From: Escherichia coli
Lineage (GTDB): Bacteria; Pseudomonadota; Gammaproteobacteria; Enterobacterales; Enterobacteriaceae
Length of the DNA stretch: 64,000 bases
Direction: 5' to 3' (one strand)
Assembly: GCF_003019035.1 (NCBI RefSeq)
Contig: NZ_CP027447.1
The translations under genes and the position numbers were made by a program. This document shows positions 6,101 through 58,097 of the stretch, one piece after another (the stretch's first letter is position 1; every line of letters starts with the position of its first letter). The notes under the pieces were generated by a model that saw only the letters and a list, made by a program, of their open reading frames with translations, was not told the DNA's origin and ran no database searches.

Positions 6101-8603
6101 CGTTTACCGATGTGGTATTTTCACTGTCAGACTGAAGCATCGCGTGAGTAAGCGCAGCGGTGTTGTCGCGTTCCAGTGTGAAGGTACTGTCTTTCAGTTG
6201 GACAACACCGGCGAATTCAGTTCCTGTTGCATGGGTAAAGCCAAACATTTTGTCGGAGGATGACAGCTGCACTCGCATCAAGCCATCGCCTTTGAGCGCA
6301 TTGGTCAGCGTGTAATCTCCTGCGCTGTTCGTTGATGCGAGAATGTCGAGCGTACCGGGGCTTGCAATGGTGACTTCACTCGAACCCATGCCCGTTACCC
6401 CATCTGCCGTATGTGACGCAATGGTCAGGAGGCCGTCATTGACCAGCGTTTTACCGCTATAAGTATTCCCTGCATTGAACACCGTATGGCCTGCATCATG
6501 TATCACTTTTCCGTCTTTATCGTCACCCGTAATCAGCATATCGACCTGGTAGCCGGCATCACTGTTATTGGTATGATTAAAGACAAAAACACCTTCGCCA
6601 GAACCAAACTCTACTTTCGTCGCGTTGGCGATAAACCCGGCATCTGCCGCCGCCTCACCGTGAGCAGCACCAATGTTTAGCGTTCCTACAGCAGGTTCAA
6701 AAAGACCTAAGTAAACTTCGCCACCTTCGACATTCAGCGTGCCGTTATTCGTCAGGGTTAACGTACCCGTACCAGACGTCCCTACATTCATATTGAATGT
6801 TTCAAGAAGAGAGTTCTGCCCATCCACCCGCACGTCGCCCTTACTTTTGTCATTCAGAGCTATCTGTGTATCACGCGCTTTAACTATACCTCCGGTGGTA
6901 ATATTCAGTTCACCCGTACCTAATACACCGACCTGTAGCAATTGGGCGTTAGTAGATGACGTTTTTAAATTCCAGAGACTATCCGTTGAAATATTAACTA
7001 TCCCCTTACCGGAGGCATTTCCTCCGATAAATCCATAGCCCGTTGAATTAAGGGTGGCACCATTACTGACATTTACGATGCCGCTACCAAAATTACCGAC
7101 ATTGATACCTACAGTATCGAACGATGATGTCGCATCCATCAGGTTCAGTGTGCCGATACCGCTTGCTTTATCGCCCAAAAAAGTAATATTTTGCGATACG
7201 AACTTACCGCCATCGCTGATATTGAGGTTTCCGACGCCCGCAACACCAATGGTGGTGTAGACATTCTTATTGACCTCCCATATCCCCCCCGTGGTGATGC
7301 TAACCTTCCCGACGCCGGTTTCTCCATAACCGAGTGAACTTCCTCCGTTGCTGACAACAAGCCCCTCATTACTGATATTCATTTCGCCGTGGCCGTCATA
7401 ACCAAGATTAGTTCCGAGATTAGTGATAACGGAGTTCTTATCCTTAACAGTAATGTTGCCTGTGCCTGTTTCTTTCATCCCCGCAGTGATAATTCCCGAA
7501 TCTACTTTGCCTTCACTAGAGACATTAAGTTCACCGTCGCCAGCATCACCGATATAGATATAGCGGAAAGCTTCGCCCGTTCCGAGGAAATTCCAATGCC
7601 CTTTATCGGTCACGTTGACGACACCGTGGGAACCGTCCTGAACGCCCACCAATGAATATTCTTTGTTATTAATCAGTCCATTATTGGAAATATTGACTTT
7701 GCCATTACCGAAATATCCATTATAGAGTCTGCGTACCGTGATGACAGAGTCTTGATCCTGCACATTCAGGGTTCCGATACCGGTGGCATTGCCTCCGATA
7801 ATCGTATTTTCAGCCGTAATTAGCCCACCCTCGCGAATAGTCGCTTCCCCAGTTCCTTGATTACCAATTTGAAATTCAATTGAGGAATCGTTATTTTTTA
7901 TTAGCCACTCACCGCCCTTTTCAACGACAACCTTACCATTACTGTTCGCTTGATATCCTACAGTGGCGACTATTGAACTCGTGACGTAACCCTTATCCGT
8001 AATATTTAATGAGCCCGTACCGTAACTCCCTATTTCGAATAATTCGGTCGTCAGAACCGAGTCCTCTCCCTCAACATTAACCGTCCCGACGCCTCCTGTC
8101 GAAGAACCTATCCTTAAATATCCTCCGTCAACGTGACCCTTCTGTTTAATATTCAGCGTCCCCGTTCCGGATTGACCCACATTTAAAGGCCTTGCATTAT
8201 TTCCGCTATCATACAATCGCCAGGTCCCACCCAAAACATTAACGGTGCCCTCCGAGTCCTCATTAGCGCCAATGACGCTGGTAGTAATAGTGGTTAAGGA
8301 AGCATTACCGCCAGCCAAAATATTAAGCACTCCAGTGCCATACCAGCCAACCAGGTAGGCATCATAAGCAACATCAGTATCAATATTGGTAATCTGACCA
8401 TTATCAACTTCCAGACTCGCACCAGACGCTGAACCGCTTAGTGCCAGCAAAACACCCAGCGTCAATCTACTGAGTTTCGTTGTCAGTCCAGAGGATTTAC
8501 GCAAATTAACCGTCGATGTTTTACCTACCCTGCGAGTTAATTCAGAGCAGGCCTGAAATACCTGTAGAGTGCAATTCCATATCACGCGATAGATTCTATT
8601 CAT
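3183..8603 (-). CDS. AIDA-I-type autotransporter adhesin, 1806 aa, intact (YdeK/YneO-family locus)
   Basis: N-terminal extended signal peptide (MNRIYRVIWN...), long Gly/Thr/Asn-rich beta-helix passenger repeats, C-terminal beta-barrel ending ...LGVKYSW. Confidence 0.85.
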   Translation of the reverse strand: MNRIYRVIWNCTLQVFQACSELTRRVGKTSTVNLRKSSGLTTKLSRLTLGVLLALSGSASGASLEVDNGQITNIDTDVAYDAYLVGWYGTGVLNILAGGNASLTTITTSVIGANEDSEGTVNVLGGTWRLYDSGNNARPLNVGQSGTGTLNIKQKGHVDGGYLRIGSSTGGVGTVNVEGEDSVLTTELFEIGSYGTGSLNITDKGYVTSSIVATVGYQANSNGKVVVEKGGEWLIKNNDSSIEFQIGNQGTGEATIREGGLITAENTIIGGNATGIGTLNVQDQDSVITVRRLYNGYFGNGKVNISNNGLINNKEYSLVGVQDGSHGVVNVTDKGHWNFLGTGEAFRYIYIGDAGDGELNVSSEGKVDSGIITAGMKETGTGNITVKDKNSVITNLGTNLGYDGHGEMNISNEGLVVSNGGSSLGYGETGVGKVSITTGGIWEVNKNVYTTIGVAGVGNLNISDGGKFVSQNITFLGDKASGIGTLNLMDATSSFDTVGINVGNFGSGIVNVSNGATLNSTGYGFIGGNASGKGIVNISTDSLWNLKTSSTNAQLLQVGVLGTGELNITTGGIVKARDTQIALNDKSKGDVRVDGQNSLLETFNMNVGTSGTGTLTLTNNGTLNVEGGEVYLGLFEPAVGTLNIGAAHGEAAADAGFIANATKVEFGSGEGVFVFNHTNNSDAGYQVDMLITGDDKDGKVIHDAGHTVFNAGNTYSGKTLVNDGLLTIASHTADGVTGMGSSEVTIASPGTLDILASTNSAGDYTLTNALKGDGLMRVQLSSSDKMFGFTHATGTEFAGVVQLKDSTFTLERDNTAALTHAMLQSDSENTTSVNVGEQSIGGLAMNGGTLTFDTDIPAATLAEGYISVDTLAVGAGDYTWKGRNYQVNGTGDVLIDVPKPWNDPMANNPLTTLNLLEHDDNHVGVQLVKAQTVIGSGGSLTLRDLQGDEVEADKTLHIAQNGTVVAEGDYGFRLTTAPGDGLYVNYGLKALNIHGGQKLTLAEHGGAYGATADMSAKIGGEGDLAINTVRQVSLSNGQNDYQGATYVQMGTLRTDADGALGNTRELNISNAAIVDLNGSTQTVETFTGQMGSTVLFKEGSLTVNKGGISQGELTGGGNLNVTGGTLAIEGLNARYNALTSVSPNAEVSLDNTQGLGRGNIANDGLLTLKNVTGELRNSISGKGIVSATARTDVELDGDNSRFVGQFNIDTGSALSVNEQKNLGDASVINNGLLTISTERSWAMTHSITGSGGVTKLGSGILTLNNDSAAYQGTTDIVGGEIAFGSDSAINMASQHINIHNSGVMSGNVTTAGDVNVMPGGTLRVAKTTVGGNLENGGTVQMNSEGGKPGNVLTVNGNYTGNNGLMTFNATLGSDNSPTDKMNVKGDTQGNTRVRVNNIGGVGAQTVNGIELIEVGGNSAGNFALTTGTVEAGAYVYTLAKGKGNDEKNWYLTSKWDGVTPADTPDPINNPPVVDPEGPSVYRPEAGSYISNIAAANSLFSHRLHDRLGEPQYTDSLRVQDSATSIWMRHVGGHERFRTGDGQLNTQANRYVLQLGGDLAQWSSNAQDRWHLGVMAGYANQHSNTQSNHVGYKSDGRISGYSAGLYATWYQNDANKTGAYVDSWALYNWFDNSVSSDNRSADDYDSRGVTASVEGGYTFEAGTFSGSEGTLNTWYVQPQVQITWMGVKDSDHTRKDGTRIETEGDGNVQTRLGVKTYQNSHHQRDNGKQREFQPYIEANWINNSKVYAVKMNGQNVSRDGARNLGEVRTGVEAKVNNNLSLWGNVGVQLGDKGYSDTQGMLGVKYSW

Positions 8604-47784: not shown

Positions 47785-49068
47785 TTAAAGACTTCTGGAA
47801 GGTTGCGCAGCTCTGACAACATGCGGTTGATCTTCCGCAGCGTCTTCCAGCGCACTTAAATCACGGTCTTTCACTTCTGGCATTTTCAGCGCAGAAATTA
47901 AACCAATCACTGAATATGCCATGATCATAATTGCGATCGGATACCAGGATTCCGTCATGGTGCAGAAAATACCCGCCAGGATAGGACCAAAACCGGAAGC
48001 GATAAGACCACCAATTTCTTTAGAAATGGCCATCCGGGTAAAGCGGTTTTTACAGCCGAACATTTCTGCCATGGTAATGTTTTCCAGAGCAAATAATCCA
48101 AGCACCGCACAGTTATGAATCACAATCAGTGCAACCATAATGGTGCTCGGGGCATAGCTTTTATCTACGATGATAGAAAGCATTGGCCATGCCAGCACAA
48201 TCGCAGAGGTATTCATAATAATATACGGGATCCGGCGACCAATTTTATCGGATAACCAACCAAGGAACGGAATGGTCATAAAGCCGAGAATCGAACTGAT
48301 CATCAATGCATCTGTTGGAATTGCTTTGTTAAACAATAACGTCTGCACTAAATAGCCTGCAAGGAAAGTCTGAATTAAACCTGAGTTACCAGCCTGACCA
48401 AAACGCAGCCCTGTTGCCAGCCAGAAGGATTTGCTCTGGAACATGCTACCAGCAGGTGCAGGTTTTGCTGTAGGTTGGTTGCTGTCGTTAACCTTCTCAA
48501 AGACCGGGCTTTCTTTCAGATTCATACGCAACCAGATAGCAAAGACCATCACGACAACGCTCGCCAGGAACGGTATACGCCATCCCCACGCCAACAGTTC
48601 CTCTTTACTGAGAATGAAGAACATAAAGGCCCAGATTGCCGTTGCGCTCAAGGTTCCGCAGTTAGTCCCCATAGCAACAAATGAGGAGATAATTCCGCGC
48701 TTACCTTTTGGCGCATATTCCGCCAGCATCGTACCGGCACCGGAAATTTCCGCGCCTGCCCCCAGCCCCTGAATAATACGCAGCGTCACCAGCAAAATTG
48801 GCGCAAACACACCAATTTGTGCATAGGTCGGCAGCACACCAATTAAGGTGGTACAGATCCCCATCATGGTGATGGTAATAAAGAGCACTTTTTTACGCCC
48901 TATTCTGTCGCCCATTTTGCCGAAAATAAATGCTCCGACAATACGTGCCACATAACCTGCACCATAGGTTCCCATTGCCAGAATTAACGCCATTGCCGTT
49001 GACGATTCAGGAAAAAATATTTCATGAAAAACTAACGCTGCGCCGAGCGAATATAACTGGAAATCCAT
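47785..49068 (-). pseudogene. ydfJ: MFS metabolite:H+ symporter YdfJ, 5'-truncated at the prophage junction
   Basis: The 427-aa ORF begins inside what aligns to TM1 of ProP/ShiA-family transporters (MDFQLYSLGAALVF… matches the …MEWFDFGVYGF… region), so the N-terminal tail and part of TM1 are missing; prophage genes start immediately upstream. Confidence 0.7.
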
Positions 49069-49853
49069 AATTCACAGGTGTTTTTTCCCATCCTGTGGTT
49101 TCCTTGGCGTTTTCTAGGTTTTTTCAGATAGTTGCATTTTTTAAAAAGCATCCTAAGTTCGATCTCAGTGTCTATCTGGGGCCTATTTCTGTCCCATATA
49201 TGCCCCAAAAAAACTCCCCAACAGATAAGTAGTTTTTTCATGGATTTATGCGTAAAATCAAGAACGGCTGGAAATCATTCAATACTCACACTATCGAAAA
49301 ATTTACCAGCCAACCGCAGCACGTTCTTGCATAAGGCGTGTCTGCGGTTTTTCAACTATTCAGATACATCACTCCCATCACATTCATTCCTCCGCATCAA
49401 AGGCATATAGGCTATATCACCTTGATATTTTTCTTTTTCAGATAAAAACTGTTATCTATGTATACTTTTAAACCCAATCCGTGTAGAGTCTCTGCATAAG
49501 ATAGTTTGCAGTTGCCGCTTCAGCTTGCGCCATAAACCGCCTGATTTTTGCTGCCACCTGTTAGCATTCCTGTATACCTGAAACGACAATGTTTATCTAC
49601 GAACTTTAAGAACACCCAAGATAAAAATTGTCAACTATATCATATATAACACATTACTAATTCGAGGCTATATGAACAGCATACTGATAATCACTTCTCT
49701 CCTTATCATATTCAGCATTTTTAGTCATGCCCTAATAAAATTAGGGATTGGCATATCCAATAACCCAGACAAAACCGATGTATAAGTCAACATATCCTGA
49801 ATCAGACATACAATATCGCAATGAAAATCAATAATATTTTAAGGAATATCTTC

Positions 49854-50087
49854 ATGAAATCAAAAGACACCCTAAAGTGGTTCCCTGCGCAGCTTCCTGA
49901 AGTAAGAATTATCCTAGGGGATGCTGTAGTGGAAGTAGCAAAACAGGGAAGACCTATCAATACCAGAACATTGCTTGATTACATTGAAGGAAACATAAAG
50001 AAAAAATCATGGCTGGATAACAAAGAATTATTACAAACAGCGATATCAGTTCTTAAAGACAACCAAAATTTAAATGGTAAAATGTAA
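49854..50087 (+). CDS. ydfK: Prophage small protein YdfK (77 aa from MKSKDTLKWF)
   Basis: Start chosen at the ATG with AAGGA Shine-Dalgarno (49854) rather than the track ATG at 49821; recognised as YdfK/YnaE family. Confidence 0.75.
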   Translation: MKSKDTLKWFPAQLPEVRIILGDAVVEVAKQGRPINTRTLLDYIEGNIKKKSWLDNKELLQTAISVLKDNQNLNGKM

Positions 50088-50403
50088 TATAATAAACTTA
50101 CTTTTTTATCATTTTTCCACTTTAACAACATTTTGCTCCACTTTTCCACGACCAAACAACTTGAAATCTGGTTAAAATAACACGCAACACTATTCTTCTT
50201 CCTTGAGTCCGCCCGGAACTCGAAAAACAAACCGAGTTAAAGCCATTTCTCACAAAACCGATTTTGGGTCTCACCAAAATTACGGGGTTGCATACGCATT
50301 CGTTTATTTTCGAACGTGTACATACAAATATGCACAAAAATAATCAAAATTATTTTCTGAGATGCATTATGATATGAACACCAATTTCGTATAGAGTCTC
50401 ACT

Positions 50404-50994
50404 ATGTCTCGAATTTTTGCTTACTGTCGGATATCAACGCTGGATCAGACCATCGAAAATCAACGCCGGGAAATCGAAAGTGCAGGTTTTAAAATCAAAC
50501 CTCAGCAAATAATCGAAGAACACATTAGCGGCTCAGCAGCAACCAGTGAGCGTCCTGGTTTTAACCGGTTGCTTGCTCGCCTGAAATGTGGTGATCAATT
50601 GATTGTGACAAAACTGGATCGCCTTGGTTGTAATGCAATGGATATCAGGAAAACAGTGGAACAACTGACCGAAACAGGTATCAGAGTGCATTGCTTAGCA
50701 TTGGGGGGCATTGACCTGACCAGTCCAACAGGAAAAATGATGATGCACGTAATTTCAGCAGTCGCTGAATTTGAACGAGACCTTTTACTTGAACGCACTC
50801 ATTCCGGGATAGTAAGAGCCCGCGGCGCAGGGAAACGTTTTGGTCGACCACCTGTGTTAAATGAAGAACAGAAACAGGTGGTATTCGAACGAATTAAGTC
50901 AGGTGTAAGTATAAGTGCCATTGCCCGGGAATTCAAAACCTCGCGGCAAACCATTTTAAGAGCCAAAGCAAAACTTCAGACACCTGATATATAA
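50404..50994 (+). CDS. pin: Serine recombinase, Pin/Gin/Hin-family DNA invertase (196 aa)
   Basis: N-terminal resolvase catalytic domain (…[10 protein letters not shown]…) and C-terminal HTH; convergent with the tail-fibre genes. Confidence 0.9.
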
Positions 50995-51091
50995 AAAATA
51001 ATCTCGGTGTGAGATGCTTTACGTCTTCCAAGCCCCCTTCCTTGCCGTAAATGGAAAGATACATCTAATTATAGAATTTATATGTTTTACC

Positions 51092-51208
51092 CTACGGCAG
51101 TGCTGGCCATTCAATATCCTGTGCAGTTGACGTATCAACACGGTTCAGCAATACCCGATACTTTTTCCATGCTTCCAGCAACGAGGTTTCTTCCTCCGTT
51201 GCATATAC
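51092..51208 (-). pseudogene. tfa: 3' remnant of a tail-fibre assembly gene (tfa), about 38 codons
   Basis: Frame encodes …[38 protein letters not shown], matching the conserved Tfa C-terminus; homology stops abruptly upstream. Confidence 0.6.
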
Positions 51209-51221
51209 AGCCCACCTTTTT

Positions 51222-51515
51222 TCACCCACGATTAACCAACAGCCAGACCAGCAGACACGCCACCACCGGCACAGCAAAATCCATCAGGCTTGCCACATCC
51301 CACGCGCGCGGATCAAAACCGCCCCACCACGGCATATTCATTCGCTTGCCATGCCCGAACATTTCAATCCAGCGATATTCTGCCTGGGTATGTTCACGCG
51401 CAATGAAGAACGTACAACCGGCTATCGCTCCGTAAGCCCAGTTTCCGGTAAAAAGACCAACCAGTATCTGCGCAGCCACAGCACAAAGTGCATGAAGTAA
51501 GGGGCTTATATCCAT
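51222..51515 (-). CDS. Hypothetical small membrane protein (97 aa, two predicted TM segments)
   Basis: Hydrophobic stretches [28 protein letters not shown] and [15 protein letters not shown]; no lipobox; lies where the tfa body is expected. Confidence 0.5.
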
Positions 51516-51527
51516 TATTTCCTCCTT

Positions 51528-51806
51528 TCAGCTCCATTCCCGAAGCGGTGTTTCCAGCTCCACGACATAATCAGAGAATACAGAAACATCAAACAAGTCA
51601 TCAAGAATGCGAATGTTGACAAAATAACCGTTATTCCGGATACAGACAGGTTCTCCCTCTTCAGTTACCCCTGTTTCTGTGTAGGTGAAACCAATTTCAT
51701 CGACTAACAGTTTATTCTGGAGGTCTTCATCTTCCTCCCAGTCAAGAGATGACAGGAAGGATTTAAACTCTCTGTTACCAGGAAATTTCAAAGTTAAATC
51801 TTTCAT
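51528..51806 (-). CDS. Hypothetical small acidic protein (92 aa); possible fibre chaperone or moron product
   Basis: ORF immediately downstream of, and 4-nt overlapping, stf; Asp/Glu-rich; no resemblance to Tfa that I can see. Confidence 0.5.
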   Translation of the reverse strand: MKDLTLKFPGNREFKSFLSSLDWEEDEDLQNKLLVDEIGFTYTETGVTEEGEPVCIRNNGYFVNIRILDDLFDVSVFSDYVVELETPLREWS

Positions 51807-53833
51807 ACTGCCTCCTTGATTTGCCTGTCATTTAATTCTTTAAACCAGACTCTGAAATTTCTGATGTGTCCAAACAAATGACGCGTTCCTGCTGCGGTCT
51901 GCCCACCAAACCGGTACGATGTTGCTGTAACTCCAAATATTTTACCATTAAGGTTTGTTGTATAATTACCATTGCATATTGCATTTACTGATAAATCAGA
52001 TTTAGCTCTCACACCCACAATGAACCTTTCTCCATCTGAGGAAATTTGTGGCTGAACCATTCCTACGTTGGCGCTTATCTTTCCTGTTGAAACAAACCCC
52101 AGCGATAAATAATTATCATCAATACTGTGCCCTCCAACATCAAATATCCTTGGCGCAACATTGGGCGGTGTACTCCAGTTCCTCCTTACTTCGCACAATA
52201 CTGTAAAAGGCCGTGTTGACAGGTTATTCGCCGAGGGGATAGTAACCACATCACTTGCGCGTGTTGTTGGCATTGTAGTTACAATAAATGACGATGCCGT
52301 ATTGCCCAGTTCAATTTGCGGCGTCGTCATGGTTAATGTTGAGTCATCATAGAATGGCTCATTACTTATTTTATTTGTCATATAAAAAGCACAGTTAACG
52401 GTATCAATGTCCGTATTAGCTGTATAAGTGGCCTCATAGTAGGTCCACTCGCCCTGTTGTTCAGCTTTGGCTGTTATAAGGGATGTATTACCGCTTACTG
52501 TTGCGATCCGGGTATCCAGATCAAGATAAGAGTCAGCAGAGAATGTATCTGTTCCACCAATAATAACTGAAACTCTTAACCTGCATCGTGCTTTAGCGCC
52601 TTTAACCCGGCACGAAAAAGTGAAACATTCACCACTTGCCAGCGGGAATCTGTCTGCTGCAACCACACCATGCACAGTATAGCCACCTGTTGTTCCCACT
52701 ATACTTTCCGTGGGTGTCACCGTGGCATAATTGAACCCCTGTTTATCAGTGCCAAATGTTTTATTCAGTGCGGAATGAACAGTCCATGAGTCTGGTTTAT
52801 TTGAGTTCCTCAGATAATTTGTCCTCTGTCCTTCAATCAATAAGCCATCGCGCTCAAATCGCGGTTCGTCAACTTCAGCAAGCTTGAGTTGGCCGGACTT
52901 ATTAATATACGTTGCTGTTGAAGCACGTTTAAACTTAACAATCTTGTCGCCTGGCATTGTTATTTCATCGTCACCAATAACAATCTTTTTATAAGATGGC
53001 GAAAAACCCGTAATCATATCCAGCGAATCGTTAAACGGTATCCACACATCAGGCAGCGGCGGCACTATATTCGCATAGGGCTCTGCAGTCACTTCCGCTG
53101 CGGCTTCTGCGCGGTCTGCCGCCTTTTCAGCTCGTGTCGCTGCCGACAGAGCCTCATCCTTTTTCTGCCCGGCCTTTGTTGCGTCTGCTGCGGCCTCCCG
53201 CGCTTTTGTGGTGGCGACTCCGGCATTTTCAGCGGCTGACTCTGCATTACGGCGGGAAGCCTCTTCACTGTCTGCGGAGGCTTCTTCTGACGCACGGGCA
53301 TTTGTCTCTGAACGTTCTGCCGCTGTTGCTGCGTTTTGTGCGGCTGTTTTTGAAGAAGCTGCCGCTTTCGCGCTGTTACCTGCATTCGTCTCTGATGTTT
53401 TCGCCGCGTTCCTGGACGATGCCGCTGCTGTTTCTGATTTCTTTGCTGCCGCTGCGCTCTGAGAGGCGGCTTCAGCGTTGCGTGCTGCTTCTTCCACCAT
53501 TGCCTCAAAACGACGCAATGCCTCCGGCATGACATCATCTTCCGTCATGGCACCGAGAAAATCATTCAGCGTACCAGGTCTGGAACCTTCATAGACGGTA
53601 ATGGTTCCGGCATGTGAAGGCGGAAAACCTTCAACCAGCAGGGTGACGCTGTACTGGCCATACTCGACATCCATGCTGTAACGCCCGGCTTCATCCGGAT
53701 TTTCAGAGGCTACCGTGTTCACCAGTACCGTGGTGCTGTTACGCTTTGCCTTCAGTTGAATAGTGCAGTTCTGTATTGGTTTTCCCGCACCATCTTTCAG
53801 CACACCTGAGATTTTTACTGCTGCCATATCCAC
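51803..53833 (-). CDS. stf: Side tail fibre protein Stf (676 aa) with lambda-type N-terminus and lectin-like C-terminal domain
   Basis: N-terminus MDMAAVKISGVLKDGAGKPIQNCTIQLKAKRN… matches lambda Stf; Ala-rich coiled segment; C-terminus …HLFGHIRNFRVWFKELNDRQIKEAV resembles the terminal strand of Laminin-G/concanavalin-like domains. Confidence 0.85.
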   Translation of the reverse strand: MDMAAVKISGVLKDGAGKPIQNCTIQLKAKRNSTTVLVNTVASENPDEAGRYSMDVEYGQYSVTLLVEGFPPSHAGTITVYEGSRPGTLNDFLGAMTEDDVMPEALRRFEAMVEEAARNAEAASQSAAAAKKSETAAASSRNAAKTSETNAGNSAKAAASSKTAAQNAATAAERSETNARASEEASADSEEASRRNAESAAENAGVATTKAREAAADATKAGQKKDEALSAATRAEKAADRAEAAAEVTAEPYANIVPPLPDVWIPFNDSLDMITGFSPSYKKIVIGDDEITMPGDKIVKFKRASTATYINKSGQLKLAEVDEPRFERDGLLIEGQRTNYLRNSNKPDSWTVHSALNKTFGTDKQGFNYATVTPTESIVGTTGGYTVHGVVAADRFPLASGECFTFSCRVKGAKARCRLRVSVIIGGTDTFSADSYLDLDTRIATVSGNTSLITAKAEQQGEWTYYEATYTANTDIDTVNCAFYMTNKISNEPFYDDSTLTMTTPQIELGNTASSFIVTTMPTTRASDVVTIPSANNLSTRPFTVLCEVRRNWSTPPNVAPRIFDVGGHSIDDNYLSLGFVSTGKISANVGMVQPQISSDGERFIVGVRAKSDLSVNAICNGNYTTNLNGKIFGVTATSYRFGGQTAAGTRHLFGHIRNFRVWFKELNDRQIKEAV

Positions 53834-53891
53834 TCCACAAAAAAGCCCGCCTGAACCGGCGGGCTGTCATAACACTGTGTTACCTGGCTAA

Positions 53892-54491
53892 TCAGAATTT
53901 ATAACCGACACCCACGATGAAACCGTCAGTGCGCCAGTCACCACTGCCGGAACCTTCATAAGCAAGGTCAATGGCCACGGATTCGGTCGGGTTAAACTGC
54001 ACGCCAGCCCCCCACGCCAGAGACGTGTTGCTGTGGCGACCGTCATCACTTCCGGTCAGCACATCGTGCGTTTTCCCCTTGTTGTCAGTTACGCGGAGAT
54101 AATCCCCGGAGAAGGTCGACACACGGCTGTAAGCCATACCCGCCATCGCATACGCGCTGAACCATTCATTCACGCGCACAGACGGCCCCGCCATCACGCT
54201 GAACCAGCGGTTACGCACGGAATCTTCATGCCAGCGGGTATCGCTGTAATGCGTTTTTTGCTCATCTTTGGCATTGGCATAACTGAATGACGTCACCAGC
54301 CCCAGCGTGTCCGTAAACTCATAACGGTATTTCACGTTAATCCCGTTCAGATCATCGCTGCCGGGAACGTTCGTCGAGGCATGAAGATACCCCGCGCTCA
54401 GCGTGGACTGATGTTCAGACGCCCATGCAGGCGCACCGGATACGGCCAGACAAATGGCTACGGACAAAATGGCGGCATAAAGTTTACGCAT
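53892..54491 (-). CDS. lom: Lom outer-membrane protein (Ail/PagC/Lom family)
   Basis: Signal peptide plus 8-strand beta-barrel family sequence ending …GFIVGVGYKF. Confidence 0.9.
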   Translation of the reverse strand: MRKLYAAILSVAICLAVSGAPAWASEHQSTLSAGYLHASTNVPGSDDLNGINVKYRYEFTDTLGLVTSFSYANAKDEQKTHYSDTRWHEDSVRNRWFSVMAGPSVRVNEWFSAYAMAGMAYSRVSTFSGDYLRVTDNKGKTHDVLTGSDDGRHSNTSLAWGAGVQFNPTESVAIDLAYEGSGSGDWRTDGFIVGVGYKF

Positions 54492-54557: not shown

Positions 54558-57500
54558 TCAGCTGATACTGATGCCTGCGGTGGCTTTCTTCATCACCACA
54601 ACCAGCAAATCGCTGATACTTGCTGTGGGATACCAGTCATTTACCAGCCATGCTGACACCGAAAACTCCAGCGTCATGTGGCCGTGACCAGCTGGCATAT
54701 CAATAACGCCACTGTAAATCAGCGTATTATCCAGCGCGGTACGGTTATAAATTTCAGCACCGTTTTTCCGCACTATCAGACGGCATGAGGAGTAAATATC
54801 AGTATGCTCTCTCTCATGTTTAGCACCGCTGAATGCCACCGCCGGAATAACAATCTGCCGGTCAAACGGCTGATCGTCATAAATCCTGACGGTAATGGTC
54901 CCTGATGGCCACCGCTCCGGTGCCCGGGAGTCCCGCGGGAAAGCCTTACCCACTGTTTTGACAATATCGCCTTCAATCTGGTTGGCTGACAGTTTCCCTT
55001 TAATCTGACAGTTCTCATTTATCGTAACGTTGTTGAGCGTCCCGGCGTTCGCATTCACACTGCCACTGATATCCGCATTTTTCGCCGTCAGTCGCCCGTC
55101 CGGTGTCAGGGAAAATGCCGGAGGATTACCGCCGCTGGTAATGGTGGGAGCCGTCAGATATTTCAGGAACACGTCATTCATGAATATCTGATCGCCCTGA
55201 CCAACAAACATCGGCTTTGTGTTGCCATTCGCAGGATTAATCATCGCAATCCTGTCTGCCGCCAGCAGCACCTGACTCTGCATGCCGTCGGGGGTGTTCT
55301 CAATACCGGCACCGATACCCGCAATATAAAGGCGTCCGTCCTGCATCTGCTGCAGCTTCACTGCCCACATGCTGTTCAGGTTATTATTTGTATCAACCTG
55401 AACCTTCTGTATCTGCTGGATCGCTGCACTCTGGTCTTCCAGTTTCTTATTGACGGTCTGTGTTATTTCATTGCTGACATCCGTTATGGACGTCCTGATT
55501 TCAGTCAGGTCAGGCGCAAGCTGACCGTTATCAATCTGCGTCCACAGCTCCTGAGCCAGATGGGTTTTCCCTATCTCGCCTTTGAAAAAATCCAGATAGC
55601 CGGATGCATCATCACTCGGCTGACCAACAGCCTCCACGAATGCCGATTTGCCAACGGTGTTCACACTGCGAACATAAAAATAATAATCATGGCCCGGTTT
55701 GATATTGATACTGGCGGCTATCCAGTACAGCGCCGTACCAAGATAACGCGCGCTGGTTTCAACCTGCCTGATATCAGCAATCCGTTTTTCCGAGAACCAG
55801 AACTCAAACTGTACCGTCGGATCATAAACCGCAAGATGCGGCGTGGCGGTTATCTGAAAATAGCCCGGCGTCAGCTCAATCCGCGACGGCGCTGCCGGTG
55901 CGGCAATCCGGAACGATACCGACGCCGGATCGCCCTGCTGCCCCCACGCATTTACTGCCCGGACTGTCAGCCTGTAGTTCCCCAGAGCCAGTTGTGTGAA
56001 GCGGTAAGTGGTTTCCGTCGTCCGGGCCGTGCTGACCAGCCGCTCACTGCCGTCATCCGCTGCCACGGTCAGGCGAAGCAGGAAGCTCACGCCCTTCACC
56101 ACCTTCGGTGTGTCCCATCGCGCCAGCACCTGATATTCCCCGCTGTCTGCAGTGACTTCTGCGGTCAGGTGCTGCACTGCTGGCGGCGTGACACCATTCA
56201 CCGTGCCGCTCTGGTCACCGTCAAAGTGCGCCCCGTTATCCACGATGGCTTCTTTCTCCGGTACATGCTGCACGGCAGTGATGGCATACGTACCGTCATC
56301 GTTCTCACGGATACTCACACAGCGGAACAGACGCTGGCGCAGCGTCGGCAGCTTCAGCCCCCATACGCTGTATTCAGCAACACCGTCAGGAACACGGCTC
56401 ACTTTTACCTTCACGCCGTCGGTGACGGACTGAACCTCCACGCTGACCGGATTGCCACTTCCGTCAACCAGGCTTATCAGCGTGGTACCGGAGGATGGCA
56501 GCGTGATTTCACGGTCGAGCGTCAGCGTCCGGGTCTGGCTGTTCACCGCCAGCACGCGACCACCGATGCTGATACCGGCATAGTCATCATCACAGATTTC
56601 AATGACATCGCCCGGTACATGGCGAAGCCCTTCTGCGCCCACGCTGAAGTCCACGGTCTGCGTTTCCAGCAGTTCCGTTTTAATCAGCCACAGCCCGGCG
56701 CGGTGCGCCTGCCCCCGGCTGGTACAGCCAAAAGCATCCATCTTCGTGACGTTACGACCGTAACGGGCAATGGCCTGCGTGTCCTCCACAAGCTCTGTTG
56801 CCGTTTCCCAGCCGTTATCCGGGTCAATCCAGTTCACTTCAACGGCATTATGGCGGTCCTTCAGGGCGCTGAAGCTGTAGCGGAACGGCGCGCCATCATC
56901 CGGCATCACCACATTACTGCGGTTATAGGTCCACACCTTATCCGACGGTCGGTCCTGCACGAACGTCAGCGTCTGCCCGTTCCATACCGGCATACAGCGC
57001 ATCGCCGAGCAGAAATCACTGAGCACATCCCACGCCTTGCGCTGTGTGGTCAGGTACGCATTACAGGTAATGCGCGGCTCCGTGCCGCCAAAGCCGTCCG
57101 GCACCGACTGGTCGCAGTACTGGCCGATGACATACAGCGCCCATTTATCCACATCCGCCGCACCAAGACGTTTCCCCATGCCGTAGCGCGGATGGGTCAG
57201 CATATCCCACAGACACCAGGCCATGTTGTTGCTGTATGCTGGCTTAAACGTTCCGTCCCAGATACCGCTGTATTGCCGCGTCAGCGGGTTATAGTTCGAC
57301 GGCACCTGCAGAATACGCCCGCGCAGATGATAATTACGGCTCACCTGCTGGCTGCCGAACTGCTCCGAGTCCACCTGCACGCCGACCAGTGCCGTGTTCG
57401 GGTAGCACTGTTTCACATCGATGATTTCGGTGTATGACGACCAGAGCGTTTTGTTCTGCAGCTGGTCTGTAGTGCTGTCCGGCGTCATCCTGCGCATCCG

Positions 57501-58034
57501 GATACTGAACGGGCGCGGCGGCAGGTTACCCACCACCACCGAGGCCAGATACTGTGAGGTGGTTTTGCCTTTAATGGTGATGTCTTTTTCCGTCACCCAG
57601 CCACCGTTACGTTGTATCTGAACCAGCAGGCGGACTTCCGACGGATTCCGGTCACCCTTTGAGGTGGTTTCCACCAGTGCCTGCACACCAAAGGTAAAGC
57701 GCAGACGGTCGATATTTGCAGACGTGATGGTGCGGGTTATCGGCGTGTCGTATTTCACTTCCGTACCCAGCACCGTCTCGGAGCCGGAGGATTCAAAACC
57801 CTCCGGCGGTGTCTGCTCCTGCTCACCGGCCCGGAACACCACCGTGACACCGGCGATGTTGGTATTCCCTTCGCTATCCAGCACCGGCGTACTGTTCAGC
57901 AGCACGCTTTTTAATCCATCCACCGGACCTTCAATCGGCCCTTCGCTGATGGCATCGATCACACTCAGTAACTGCGTGGATTTCAGGTTGTCCTTCGCTT
58001 CGCGCGGGGTATGCCCCTTACTGCTGCCTTTACC
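54558..58034 (-). CDS. J: Tail tip host-specificity protein J (start at [15 protein letters not shown])
   Basis: N-terminal ~850 aa match lambda J as I recall it; C-terminal ~300 aa diverge; the track ORF extends 16 codons upstream. Confidence 0.9.
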
Positions 58035-58097
58035 CATTCCTAACGCTCCATAAACGACAAAACCGCCCGGAGGCGGTTTCACATAAAATATTTTGCA

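What the first reader, a model, noticed from the sequence alone, without database searches (positions are those of the whole stretch)
50404..51100. Pin invertase without an obvious invertible tail-fibre segment
A complete Pin/Gin/Hin-family serine invertase lies convergent to the fibre genes, but the expected content of an invertible segment (two oppositely oriented fibre C-termini and tfa genes) is absent: everything fibre-related is on one strand and tfa is reduced to a remnant. I could not find a convincing 26-bp gix/hix-like crossover site by eye in 50100-51250 or at the constant/variable boundary of stf. Pin may be an orphan, or it may act on degenerate or distant sites.
Basis: partly seen in the sequence, partly recalled or inferred. 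Interest (0 to 1): 0.45.

Follow-up and report, generated by a model that had tools for sequence, protein, structure and literature searches.

The report
pinQ: orphaned transposon resolvase, not fibre invertase
The "Pin invertase" is the known E. coli prophage gene pinQ, and it has no invertible tail-fibre segment because it is the leftover resolvase gene of a decayed Tn3-family transposon, not a Gin/Hin/Pin-type fibre invertase.

Summary
The sequence facts hold. A complete 196-aa serine recombinase (50404-50994, +) lies convergent to the fibre genes. Only a 3' tfa remnant is left (51092-51202). No gix/pix-like site exists anywhere in the 64 kb: the best match is 13 of 18 specified positions, the same as shuffles, while real pix sites score 17.

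The premise that a fibre segment is "expected" is wrong. The gene is pinQ of the Qin-site lambdoid prophage. It is 38% identical to PinE and scores 106 bits against Gin, where PinE scores 312.

Its nearest relatives (73-84% aa) are tnpR genes of Tn3-family transposons on enterobacterial plasmids and chromosomes. In 33 loci these carry a conserved three-subsite res (28, 34 and about 25 bp) just upstream. The window keeps that res in the same register, but four of five half-sites score below the family minimum. It also keeps a degenerate terminal inverted repeat right after the stop codon. No tnpA is left.

The catalytic arginine (Tn3 R71) is Cys76 in the PinQ/PinR lineage only. Active lambdoid phages carry the same arrangement, and 23 related loci show no inversion.

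A 2025 paper reports that overproduced PinQ inverts the e14 P segment in trans. The strain matching the window has such a segment with pinE. Direct catalysis by PinQ has not been shown.

The parts
50290..50317 (+). Relic of res subsite I, the 28-bp crossover site of the ancestral Tn3-family transposon. It is degenerate.
   Evidence: It sits in the same register as the family site I (-114 to -87 from the ATG). Half-site PWM scores are -1.0 and 7.4 bits, against family medians of 14.7 and 18.0 and minima of 9.4 and 9.6.
50330..50363 (+). Relic of res subsite II (34 bp). It is degenerate.
   Evidence: Half-site scores are 6.0 and 1.5 bits, against family medians of 15.1 and 13.7. It aligns with the plasmid and transposon copies.
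50370..50394 (+). res subsite III, next to the gene and overlapping the family's conserved TATAAT box. Only its right half-site (50382-50394) is still family-like.
   Evidence: CTATACGAAATTG scores 13.8 bits, against a family median of 15.7. The family TATAAT reads TATGAT here.
50404..50994 (+). pinQ: a 196-aa small serine recombinase of a TnpR-type clade, with Cys76 in place of the catalytic Arg (Tn3 R71).
51001..51037 (-). Degenerate terminal inverted repeat (tnpR-side end) of the ancestral transposon.
   Evidence: Homology to plasmid pECOED at 82% runs through the stop codon to about 51033. This is the best match in the whole window to the family IR GGGGTCCGCTTGGAAAACGG...ACGCTAAG, with score 15 against a mean of 6.2 and sd of 1.4; the second-best match scores 13. 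Intact IRs lie at the same place after tnpR in L026 and L027.
51092..51202 (-). 3' remnant of the tail-fibre assembly gene tfa, a scar of module exchange.
   Evidence: RefSeq annotates it as a pseudogene. It matches PHROG tail-fibre-assembly families over the C-terminus only. The 99% identity to phage Turner ends at 51202.
51203..53433 (-). Swapped-in fibre-tip cassette: orf97 (51222-51515), orf92 (51528-51806) and the C-terminal part of stf (gene 51803-53833).
   Evidence: This stretch has no homology to Turner, and homology resumes at 53434. The stf protein matches the GTA_spike_fiber domain and PHROG 1419; orf92 and orf97 match PHROGs 1361 and 1443 of unknown function.
49672..50087 (+). ynfT and ydfK, the prophage-end genes upstream of pinQ. 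They are context and not part of the transposon relic.
   Evidence: Annotation is. No tnpA remnant is found upstream of pinQ or anywhere in the window.

Best explanation
Position 50404-50994 is pinQ, and it is the surviving tnpR (resolvase) gene of a Tn3-family transposon. That transposon once inserted just beyond tfa in a lambdoid phage and then lost its transposase.

What the sequence shows:
- The relic spans about 50290-51037: a decayed three-subsite res, then tnpR, then a decayed terminal inverted repeat.
- Relatives with intact copies have the canonical Tn3 layout tnpA <- res(I,II,III) -> tnpR.
- The crossover subsite I and subsite II are degenerate here, and the catalytic arginine is Cys.

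What I infer:
- The protein was never a tail-fibre invertase, so no invertible segment is missing.
- It probably no longer carries out efficient cis recombination.
- It probably still binds DNA, at least at the intact subsite III half-site at its own promoter. The gene persists under relaxed purifying selection as a passenger or accessory gene at the prophage end.
- Any inversion it promotes, such as the reported effect on the e14 P segment, would be in trans and has not been shown to be direct.
For: (1) Family placement. PinQ is 38% identical to PinE. It scores 106 bits against Gin, where PinE scores 312.

(2) Relatives. More than 1,800 plasmids carry homologues, mostly at 60-85% identity. 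The relatives at 73-79% identity have a 994-1033-aa Tn3-family transposase directly adjacent; NF033527 scores 616-1217 bits against a cutoff of 500. Of 80 genome loci, 18 have a Tn3 transposase within 5 kb. Only one has any Tfa homology, and that is the E. coli copy of this same locus. The 3.7-kb tnpA-res-tnpR unit is present at 80% coverage or more on 244 plasmids. The apparently lone plasmid copies also lie between transposon IRs, with a truncated or IS-interrupted tnpA.

(3) Conserved res. In 33 loci from alpha-, beta- and gamma-proteobacteria, half-sites nTGTmCGAAAnnn sit at fixed positions and form subsites of 28, 34 and about 25 bp, with subsite III next to the gene. This is the published Tn3 layout (PMC7157771).

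(4) The window. The same register is kept but the sites are decayed. A relic IR follows the stop codon. There is no tnpA and no second res-like dyad in 64 kb.

(5) Catalysis. Cys76 aligns with gamma-delta/Tn3 R71. Cys occurs in 5 of 117 protein clusters, all of them PinQ/PinR. R71A and R71K abolish Tn3 resolvase recombination and cut cleavage about 1000-fold (PMC2794168).

(6) Selection. dN/dS is 0.39 within the Cys lineage and 0.17 against the plasmid tnpR. Segregating changes include R73H at the second catalytic Arg.

(7) Conservation of the arrangement. Active phages have the same pinQ and the same relic, and there is no inversion in 23 loci.
Against: PMC12529663 reports that overproduced PinQ raises e14 P-segment inversion from about 30% to 88%, and that deleting pinQ lowers it. 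That implies some activity despite Cys76.

The ORF is intact in all 16 alleles examined, and dN/dS stays below 1, so the protein is not a dead pseudogene.

By raw score PinQ is slightly closer to Gin (106 bits) than to gamma-delta resolvase (84 bits). The 'resolvase' assignment therefore rests on context (tnpA, res, IR) and not on a phylogeny.

The PWM anchor used a seed motif for the subsite III right half, which is a mild circularity for that class. The IR relic alone is only modestly above background.
Confidence: 0.72

Rival explanations
1. PinQ is a working trans-acting invertase. Its substrate is the P segment of the e14-type prophage elsewhere in the chromosome, and flipping it makes a chimeric fibre protein that blocks phage T2 adsorption (Kirigo et al. 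2025). This is compatible with a transposon origin.
For: PMC12529663 reports that PinQ overproduction shifts P inversion from 30% to 88%. T2 survivors carry the inverted segment, and the effect needs stfP, stfE and e14. K-12 PinQ differs from the window protein at only 4 residues. Strain GF131, which is 100% identical to the window over 4.4 kb, has a complete e14-like prophage at icd with pinE and a segment of about 1.9 kb flanked by pix sites.
Against: The same paper states that the pinE mutant, with pinQ and pinR intact, is locked in one orientation. It reports no in vitro assay, no catalytic-serine mutant and no test of PinQ in a pinE-null strain. PinQ carries Cys at the catalytic Arg. Its recognition helix (SRQTILRAK) matches the TnpR clade and not the Din helix (VSTLYKR). 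The pix half-sites score at most 0.3 bits with the clade's half-site PWM, where cognate sites score 14-18.
Confidence: 0.22
2. PinQ is still a functional resolvase acting on its own diverged res, for example resolving phage or prophage dimers. On this view the site changes reflect co-evolution and not decay.
For: The ORF is intact. The subsite III half-site and the promoter box are retained. The register of all three subsites is preserved. The module is conserved in active phages.
Against: The DNA-binding helix is nearly unchanged from the clade, while four of five half-sites fall below the family minimum. The catalytic Arg is lost. Constraint is relaxed and some alleles carry further catalytic-site substitutions. 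No partner res exists in the window.
Confidence: 0.08
3. This is an orphaned Din-family fibre invertase whose invertible segment (second fibre tip, second tfa and crossover sites) was deleted when the fibre cassette was replaced.
For: The gene sits next to fibre genes and a truncated tfa. The fibre-tip cassette has clearly been exchanged.
Against: Identity to PinE is 38%. Phages with an intact tfa and stf (Turner, K-12 Qin) have the same convergent pinQ and still no inverted fibre genes. The pinQ 3' end, not its 5' end, faces the fibres, which is the reverse of e14. No Din-type site is present. The flanks are transposon res and IR relics.
Confidence: 0.03

Closest known systems
PinQ (b1545, Qin) and PinR (Rac) of E. 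coli K-12
   Same: It is the same gene at the same chromosomal site (ydfJ'-ynfT-ydfK-pinQ-tfa). The protein differs at 4 of 196 residues. The upstream relic res differs at a single base over the 125 bp compared, the downstream relic IR is identical, and Cys76 is present in both.
   Different: Here the prophage is far more complete, with J, lom and a full stf. The tfa-stf tip has been replaced by another cassette, leaving only the tfa 3' end.
TnpR resolvases of Tn3-family transposons, in particular the ~3.7-3.8 kb tnpA-res-tnpR element common on enterobacterial plasmids. From memory this may be Tn5403-like; that name was not tested.
   Same: Protein identity is 73-84%. The DNA-binding helix is the same. 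The upstream three-subsite res is homologous and in the same register, and a homologous terminal IR follows the stop codon.
   Different: There is no tnpA. Subsites I and II are degenerate, the IR is degenerate, and the catalytic Arg is replaced by Cys. The gene sits in a phage genome and not in a transposon.
Din-family DNA invertases: Gin (Mu), Cin (P1), Hin (Salmonella), PinE (e14)
   Same: They share the small serine recombinase fold (Resolvase + HTH_7). The gene is phage-borne, lies next to tail-fibre genes and carries the historical name 'Pin'.
   Different: Identity is only 36-38%, whereas PinE scores 312 bits against Gin. There are no 26-bp crossover sites and no inverted fibre gene pair. 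The gene is in the opposite orientation relative to the fibres, and its recognition helix differs.
Tn3 / gamma-delta resolvase with its res site
   Same: The res architecture is the same: 28, 34 and about 25 bp subsites with subsite III next to tnpR, and half-sites of the TGTCCGAAA type. The catalytic residues can be aligned.
   Different: Protein identity is only about a third (84 bits). Subsite spacing differs somewhat: the centres of subsites I and II are about 43 bp apart here.

Membership tests
Din-family DNA invertases (Gin/Cin/Hin/PinE) | High mutual sequence identity among members and a shared DNA-binding helix (..STLYK/R..) | tested here: not met
   PinQ-PinE identity is 38%. PinQ scores 106 bits against Gin, where PinE scores 312. 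The PinQ helix is SRQTILRAK.
Din-family DNA invertases (Gin/Cin/Hin/PinE) | Two 26-bp crossover sites (12-2-12, TTNTCNNAAACC-type half-sites) in inverted orientation flanking a segment next to the gene | tested here: not met
   There are 0 matches at up to 3 mismatches. The window maximum is 13 of 18 positions, equal to shuffles, while real pix sites score 17 of 18. No significant inverted repeats were found.
Din-family DNA invertases (Gin/Cin/Hin/PinE) | Invertible segment carrying alternative fibre tips and tfa genes in opposite orientation | tested here: not met
   All fibre genes are on the minus strand. The same holds in phage Turner and K-12 Qin. All 23 related loci are collinear.
Din-family DNA invertases (Gin/Cin/Hin/PinE) | Fis-dependent recombinational enhancer within the 5' part of the invertase gene | not tested
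   The Fis consensus is too degenerate for a meaningful sequence test. It would need an in vitro assay.
Din-family DNA invertases (Gin/Cin/Hin/PinE) | Cross-complementation: inverts G, C, H or P segments | not testable with these tools
   PMC12529663 reports more P-segment inversion on PinQ overproduction, but the pinE mutant is locked and no direct assay was done.
Tn3-family transposon resolvases (TnpR, serine type) | Close homologues encoded next to a Tn3-family transposase | tested here: met
   L030, L031, L032, L034 and L036 have a divergent tnpA, and L059-61 have a downstream tnpA. NF033527 scores 616-1217 bits against a cutoff of 500. In all, 18 of 80 loci have one, and 244 plasmids carry the whole unit.
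Tn3-family transposon resolvases (TnpR, serine type) | Three-subsite res immediately upstream, with subsite III proximal to tnpR and crossover at subsite I | tested here: inconclusive
   It is clearly present in 33 relatives. In the window the register is kept, but four of five half-sites score below the family minimum, so this is a relic and not an intact res.
Tn3-family transposon resolvases (TnpR, serine type) | Lies inside a unit bounded by ~38-bp terminal inverted repeats (GGGG...ACGYTAAG) | tested here: inconclusive
   A degenerate IR lies at 51001-51037 in the right place and orientation. No second IR and no tnpA are present.
Tn3-family transposon resolvases (TnpR, serine type) | Complete catalytic set (Tn3 numbering Y6, R8, S10, D36, R68, R71) | tested here: not met
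   Y7, R9, S11 and R73 are present, and E39 stands at the D36 position as in the whole clade. The R71 equivalent is Cys76. R71 mutants of Tn3 resolvase are recombination-dead.

The most novel reading that the evidence does not exclude
Lambdoid phages have domesticated a catalytically altered transposon resolvase (Arg to Cys at the active site, own res decayed). On this reading it acts in trans: a phage-borne protein that flips or regulates the fibre switch of a different resident prophage (e14-type P segment), or binds other res-like sites. That would give the lysogen protection against other phages. It would be a resolvase-to-trans-invertase functional shift, with cross-talk between prophages.
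Probability: 0.18. Interest if true: 0.55.

Novelty: already known. Interest (0 to 1): 0.3.

Why it matters
In practical terms this is ordinary. pinQ and pinR are long-annotated genes known to lack an adjacent invertible segment.

The useful result is a correction of category. Annotation pipelines and a recent experimental paper treat PinQ as a Pin-type invertase. The sequence says it is a relic tnpR with a decayed res, a decayed transposon end and a missing catalytic arginine.

That gives a simple reason for the missing substrate. It also sharpens what must be shown before PinQ is accepted as the enzyme that inverts the e14 P segment: activity without PinE, and dependence on Ser11. Finally, it warns against inferring 'invertible fibre segment expected' from the presence of any small serine recombinase beside fibre genes.

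Tried and rejected
- **gix consensus and inverted repeats:** A candidate I saw by eye at 50247 (TTCTCACAAAACCGATTTTGGGTCTC) scores 12 of 18, which is chance level.
- **Published pix repeat:** TTGGTTTGGGAGAAGG gives one 3-mismatch hit at 6592, as expected by chance.
- **Curated families:** NCBIfam has no family above its cutoff for PinQ. PADLOC has no defence-system match for PinQ, ydfK, orf92 or orf97.
- **Erwinia phage LS-2018a:** The 60% homologue lies between terminase and portal genes. This gave no fibre context and was not pursued.
- **IMG/VR scan:** It returned only near-identical E. coli prophage ends.
- **tnpA remnant:** tblastn found none in the window.
- **Transposon IRs:** The repeat finder did not find them in L030 or L036. 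They were found later by an approximate pattern search.
- **Naming the transposon Tn5403:** The papers read give no sequence to compare, so the name stays an untested recollection.
- **Sharp left breakpoint at the subsite I crossover:** Considered and dropped. Both halves of subsite I keep 7 of 13 consensus bases by my manual comparison of the consensus with the half-sites, so this is decay and not a junction.

Full report
**What is there**

The window is E. coli chromosome: dcp, ydfG, rspR, ydfZ, ydfI and a truncated ydfJ. A lambdoid prophage follows at the Qin site. Positions 49600-54000 are 100% identical to strain GF131 and 99.7% identical to E. coli B/REL606 and others.

The gene order is ynfT (49672-49785, +), ydfK (49854-50087, +) and pinQ (50404-50994, +). 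On the minus strand follow a tfa 3' remnant (51092-51202), orf97 (51222-51515), orf92 (51528-51806), stf (51803-53833), lom (53892-54491) and J (54558-58082).

PinQ is a complete 196-aa small serine recombinase. Pfam matches are Resolvase 4.7e-36 and HTH_7 8.6e-11. It differs at four residues from K-12 PinQ.

**Checking the observation**

- The consensus TTATCCAAAACC-NN-GGTTTTGGATAA has no match at up to 3 mismatches in 64 kb.
- A scan of the 18 specified positions of the Din-type site peaks at 13 of 18, the same as shuffled sequence (12-14). As positive controls, the genuine pix sites of K-12 e14 and of the e14-like prophage of GF131 score 17 of 18.
- Inverted repeats in 49-55 kb are short and imperfect.
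- All fibre genes are on one strand, and tfa is a C-terminal stub.

**Why tfa is a stub**

The window is 99.2% identical to the active phage Turner from 49298 to 51202, which lies inside tfa. It is then unrelated until 53434, inside stf. The fibre tip, with two small downstream ORFs, was therefore swapped as a cassette. The same junctions (51202-51211 and about 53475) recur in many prophages. This is ordinary fibre mosaicism and has nothing to do with an invertase.

**PinQ is not a Din-family invertase**

PinQ is 38% identical to PinE and 36-38% identical to Gin, Cin and Hin homologues in phages. Against solved structures it scores 106 bits with Gin and 84 with gamma-delta resolvase. PinE scores 312 with Gin and 112 with gamma-delta resolvase. 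PinQ is thus about as far from Gin as PinE is from a transposon resolvase. No NCBIfam model reaches its cutoff.

**What its relatives are**

The protein database returns thousands of homologues. Those at 77-85% identity are largely plasmid-borne, and some sources name them 'resolvase'. More than 1,800 plasmids carry one.

A scan of one genome per species returned 80 loci at 57-98% identity from alpha-, beta- and gamma-proteobacteria.

In 33 loci with a recognisable anchor, the 120 bp upstream of the gene hold half-sites of consensus nTGTmCGAAAnnn at fixed positions. They form a 28-bp dyad (about -116 to -89), a 34-bp dyad (-76 to -43) and a third site of about 25 bp ending about 10 bp before the ATG. 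A TATAAT box lies between the second and third. That is the res layout of Tn3-family transposons: subsites I, II and III, with III next to tnpR and crossover in I (PMC7157771).

The loci at 73-79% identity have a 994-1033-aa Tn3-family transposase divergently transcribed from the other side of this res. In a Methylovulum element present in three copies the transposase is co-directional downstream. NF033527 scores 616-1217 bits against a cutoff of 500.

Of the 80 loci, 18 have such a transposase within 5 kb. Only the E. coli locus has any Tfa homology. The 3.7-kb tnpA-res-tnpR unit is on at least 244 plasmids.

The E. coli plasmid copies that are 84% identical to PinQ looked like lone resolvases in the incomplete plasmid annotation. 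They lie between two copies of a terminal inverted repeat, GGGGTCCGCTTGGAAAACGG...ACGCTAAG, about 3.8 kb apart. Their tnpA is truncated or interrupted by an IS.

**The relic in the window**

The DNA upstream of pinQ aligns with these elements in the same register. A half-site matrix was built from 135 family sites. With it the window scores as follows, against family medians of 14.7, 18.0, 15.1, 13.7 and 15.7 bits:

| Half-site | Window score (bits) | Family median (bits) |
|---|---|---|
| Subsite I left | -1.0 | 14.7 |
| Subsite I right | 7.4 | 18.0 |
| Subsite II left | 6.0 | 15.1 |
| Subsite II right | 1.5 | 13.7 |
| Subsite III right | 13.8 | 15.7 |

Only the gene-proximal half-site is still family-like. 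No other res-like dyad exists in the 64 kb.

Homology to the plasmid element continues about 40 bp past the stop codon. The best match in the whole window to the transposon's terminal repeat lies there, at 51001-51037, in the correct orientation. Its score is 15 against a mean of 6.2 and sd of 1.4. The 84%-identical sister lineage (L020) keeps a better copy at the same place.

There is no tnpA remnant. K-12 Qin has the same relics apart from a single base change upstream, and phage Turner has the same upstream relic. The unit 50290-51037 is therefore the tnpR end of a Tn3-family transposon that decayed in a lambdoid phage ancestor.

**The active site**

In the alignment to gamma-delta resolvase, PinQ Cys76 (LDRLGC) stands at R71. 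Among 117 homologue clusters where the motif is readable, 112 have Arg. The 5 with Cys are exactly the PinQ/PinR clusters.

In Tn3 resolvase, R71A and R71K abolish recombination and reduce single-strand cleavage about 1000-fold (PMC2794168).

dN/dS is 0.39 between the two Cys-bearing lineages and 0.17-0.20 against the plasmid tnpR. Among 15 close alleles, nonsynonymous and synonymous segregating sites number 10 and 8, and they include R73H at the second catalytic arginine and P149L in the GRP motif.

The gene is under relaxed but not absent constraint. All 16 alleles, including the more distant L020, keep an open frame.

**Is there inversion anywhere nearby?**

None of 23 related prophage or phage loci shows an inverted piece relative to the window. 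All 32 E. coli genomes that cover the region do so in one collinear piece. The published BLAST survey likewise found inversions only in e14 (PMC12529663).

**The published trans activity**

Kirigo et al. (NAR 2025, PMC12529663) report three things. Overproduced K-12 PinQ raises inversion of the 1797-bp e14 P segment from about 30% to 88%. T2-resistant survivors carry the inverted form. The effect requires the P segment.

The strain that matches the window has a complete e14-like prophage at icd, with pinE and a pix-flanked segment of about 1.9 kb, roughly 0.4 Mb away. I infer that the window comes from this or a near-identical strain.

The same paper notes that a pinE mutant is locked in one orientation although pinQ and pinR are intact. 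It describes no in vitro reaction, no serine mutant and no test in a pinE-null host.

From sequence, PinQ's recognition helix is that of the TnpR clade. The pix half-sites score at most 0.3 bits with that clade's matrix. The catalytic arginine is missing. Direct catalysis by PinQ is therefore possible but unproven, and an indirect effect through PinE or through selection is at least as likely.

**Verdict**

PinQ and PinR are annotated putative recombinases without an adjacent invertible segment.

The interpretation needs one correction. Nothing is missing, because the gene is an orphaned transposon resolvase and not a fibre invertase. I found no paper in the searchable library that links PinQ or PinR to TnpR or res. 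The re-classification may be a small new point, but it concerns a known gene and a known kind of relic.

**Caveats**
- The matrix anchor used a seed motif for one half-site class.
- dN/dS is a simple Nei-Gojobori estimate.
- The terminal-repeat relic is convincing mainly through its position and the flanking homology.
- No phylogeny was built.

Noticed in passing
window 51203-53433 (stf C-terminal part, orf92 51528-51806, orf97 51222-51515): This is a fibre-tip cassette unrelated to the stf-tfa tip of phage Turner and K-12 Qin. The stf C-terminus matches the 'GTA head spike fibre' domain (NF048003, 3.5e-18) and PHROG 1419. Two small ORFs of unknown function follow (PHROGs 1361 and 1443; the latter looks membrane-associated) where a tfa chaperone would normally sit.
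   Followed up: partly
window 51202-51211 and about 53434-53475: The same homology breakpoints inside tfa and inside stf recur across many E. coli prophage loci (L005-L025). They appear to be preferred recombination junctions for fibre-tip exchange.
   Followed up: partly
L027 1820-5660 and L026 556-5635 (E. coli IncI/K/FIB plasmids): The 'recombinase family protein' that looks like a lone plasmid resolvase in the plasmid gene tables lies inside a Tn3-family transposon bounded by 38-bp IRs. The element is about 3.8 kb in L027, where tnpA is truncated to 914 aa. In L026 tnpA is split by IS600. These pseudogenes are not listed in the PLSDB tables.
   Followed up: partly
L108/L109 = NZ_CP172134.1 2684427-2723030 (strain GF131): A full-length, apparently intact e14-type prophage sits at icd, with Mu-like tail genes, capsid, terminase, intE/xisE, mcrA and pinE with a pix-flanked invertible fibre segment. 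In K-12, e14 is a 15-kb remnant.
   Followed up: partly
L004 8001-8606 (Erwinia phage LS-2018a): A 60%-identical PinQ-clade recombinase with a recognisable upstream res (half-sites of the TGTACTAAA type) lies between a terminase large-subunit gene and the portal gene. This is an unusual place for a resolvase. The record has two copies.
   Followed up: no
L059, L060, L061 (Methylovulum psychrotolerans): The genome holds three copies, identical over the regions examined, of a res-tnpR-tnpA element (tnpR 63% identical to PinQ) on different contigs. This is consistent with a currently active transposon.
   Followed up: no
window 50665-50677: A single strong res-type half-site (CTGACCGAAACAG, 13.8 bits) lies inside the pinQ coding sequence (codons for LTETG). 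It has no partner half-site, so it is probably coincidental or a by-product of conserved coding sequence.
   Followed up: no
window 47785-49068: ydfJ is truncated at its 5' end by the prophage insertion (annotated as a pseudogene in GF131), as in K-12. This marks the prophage/chromosome junction about 600 bp upstream of ynfT.
   Followed up: no
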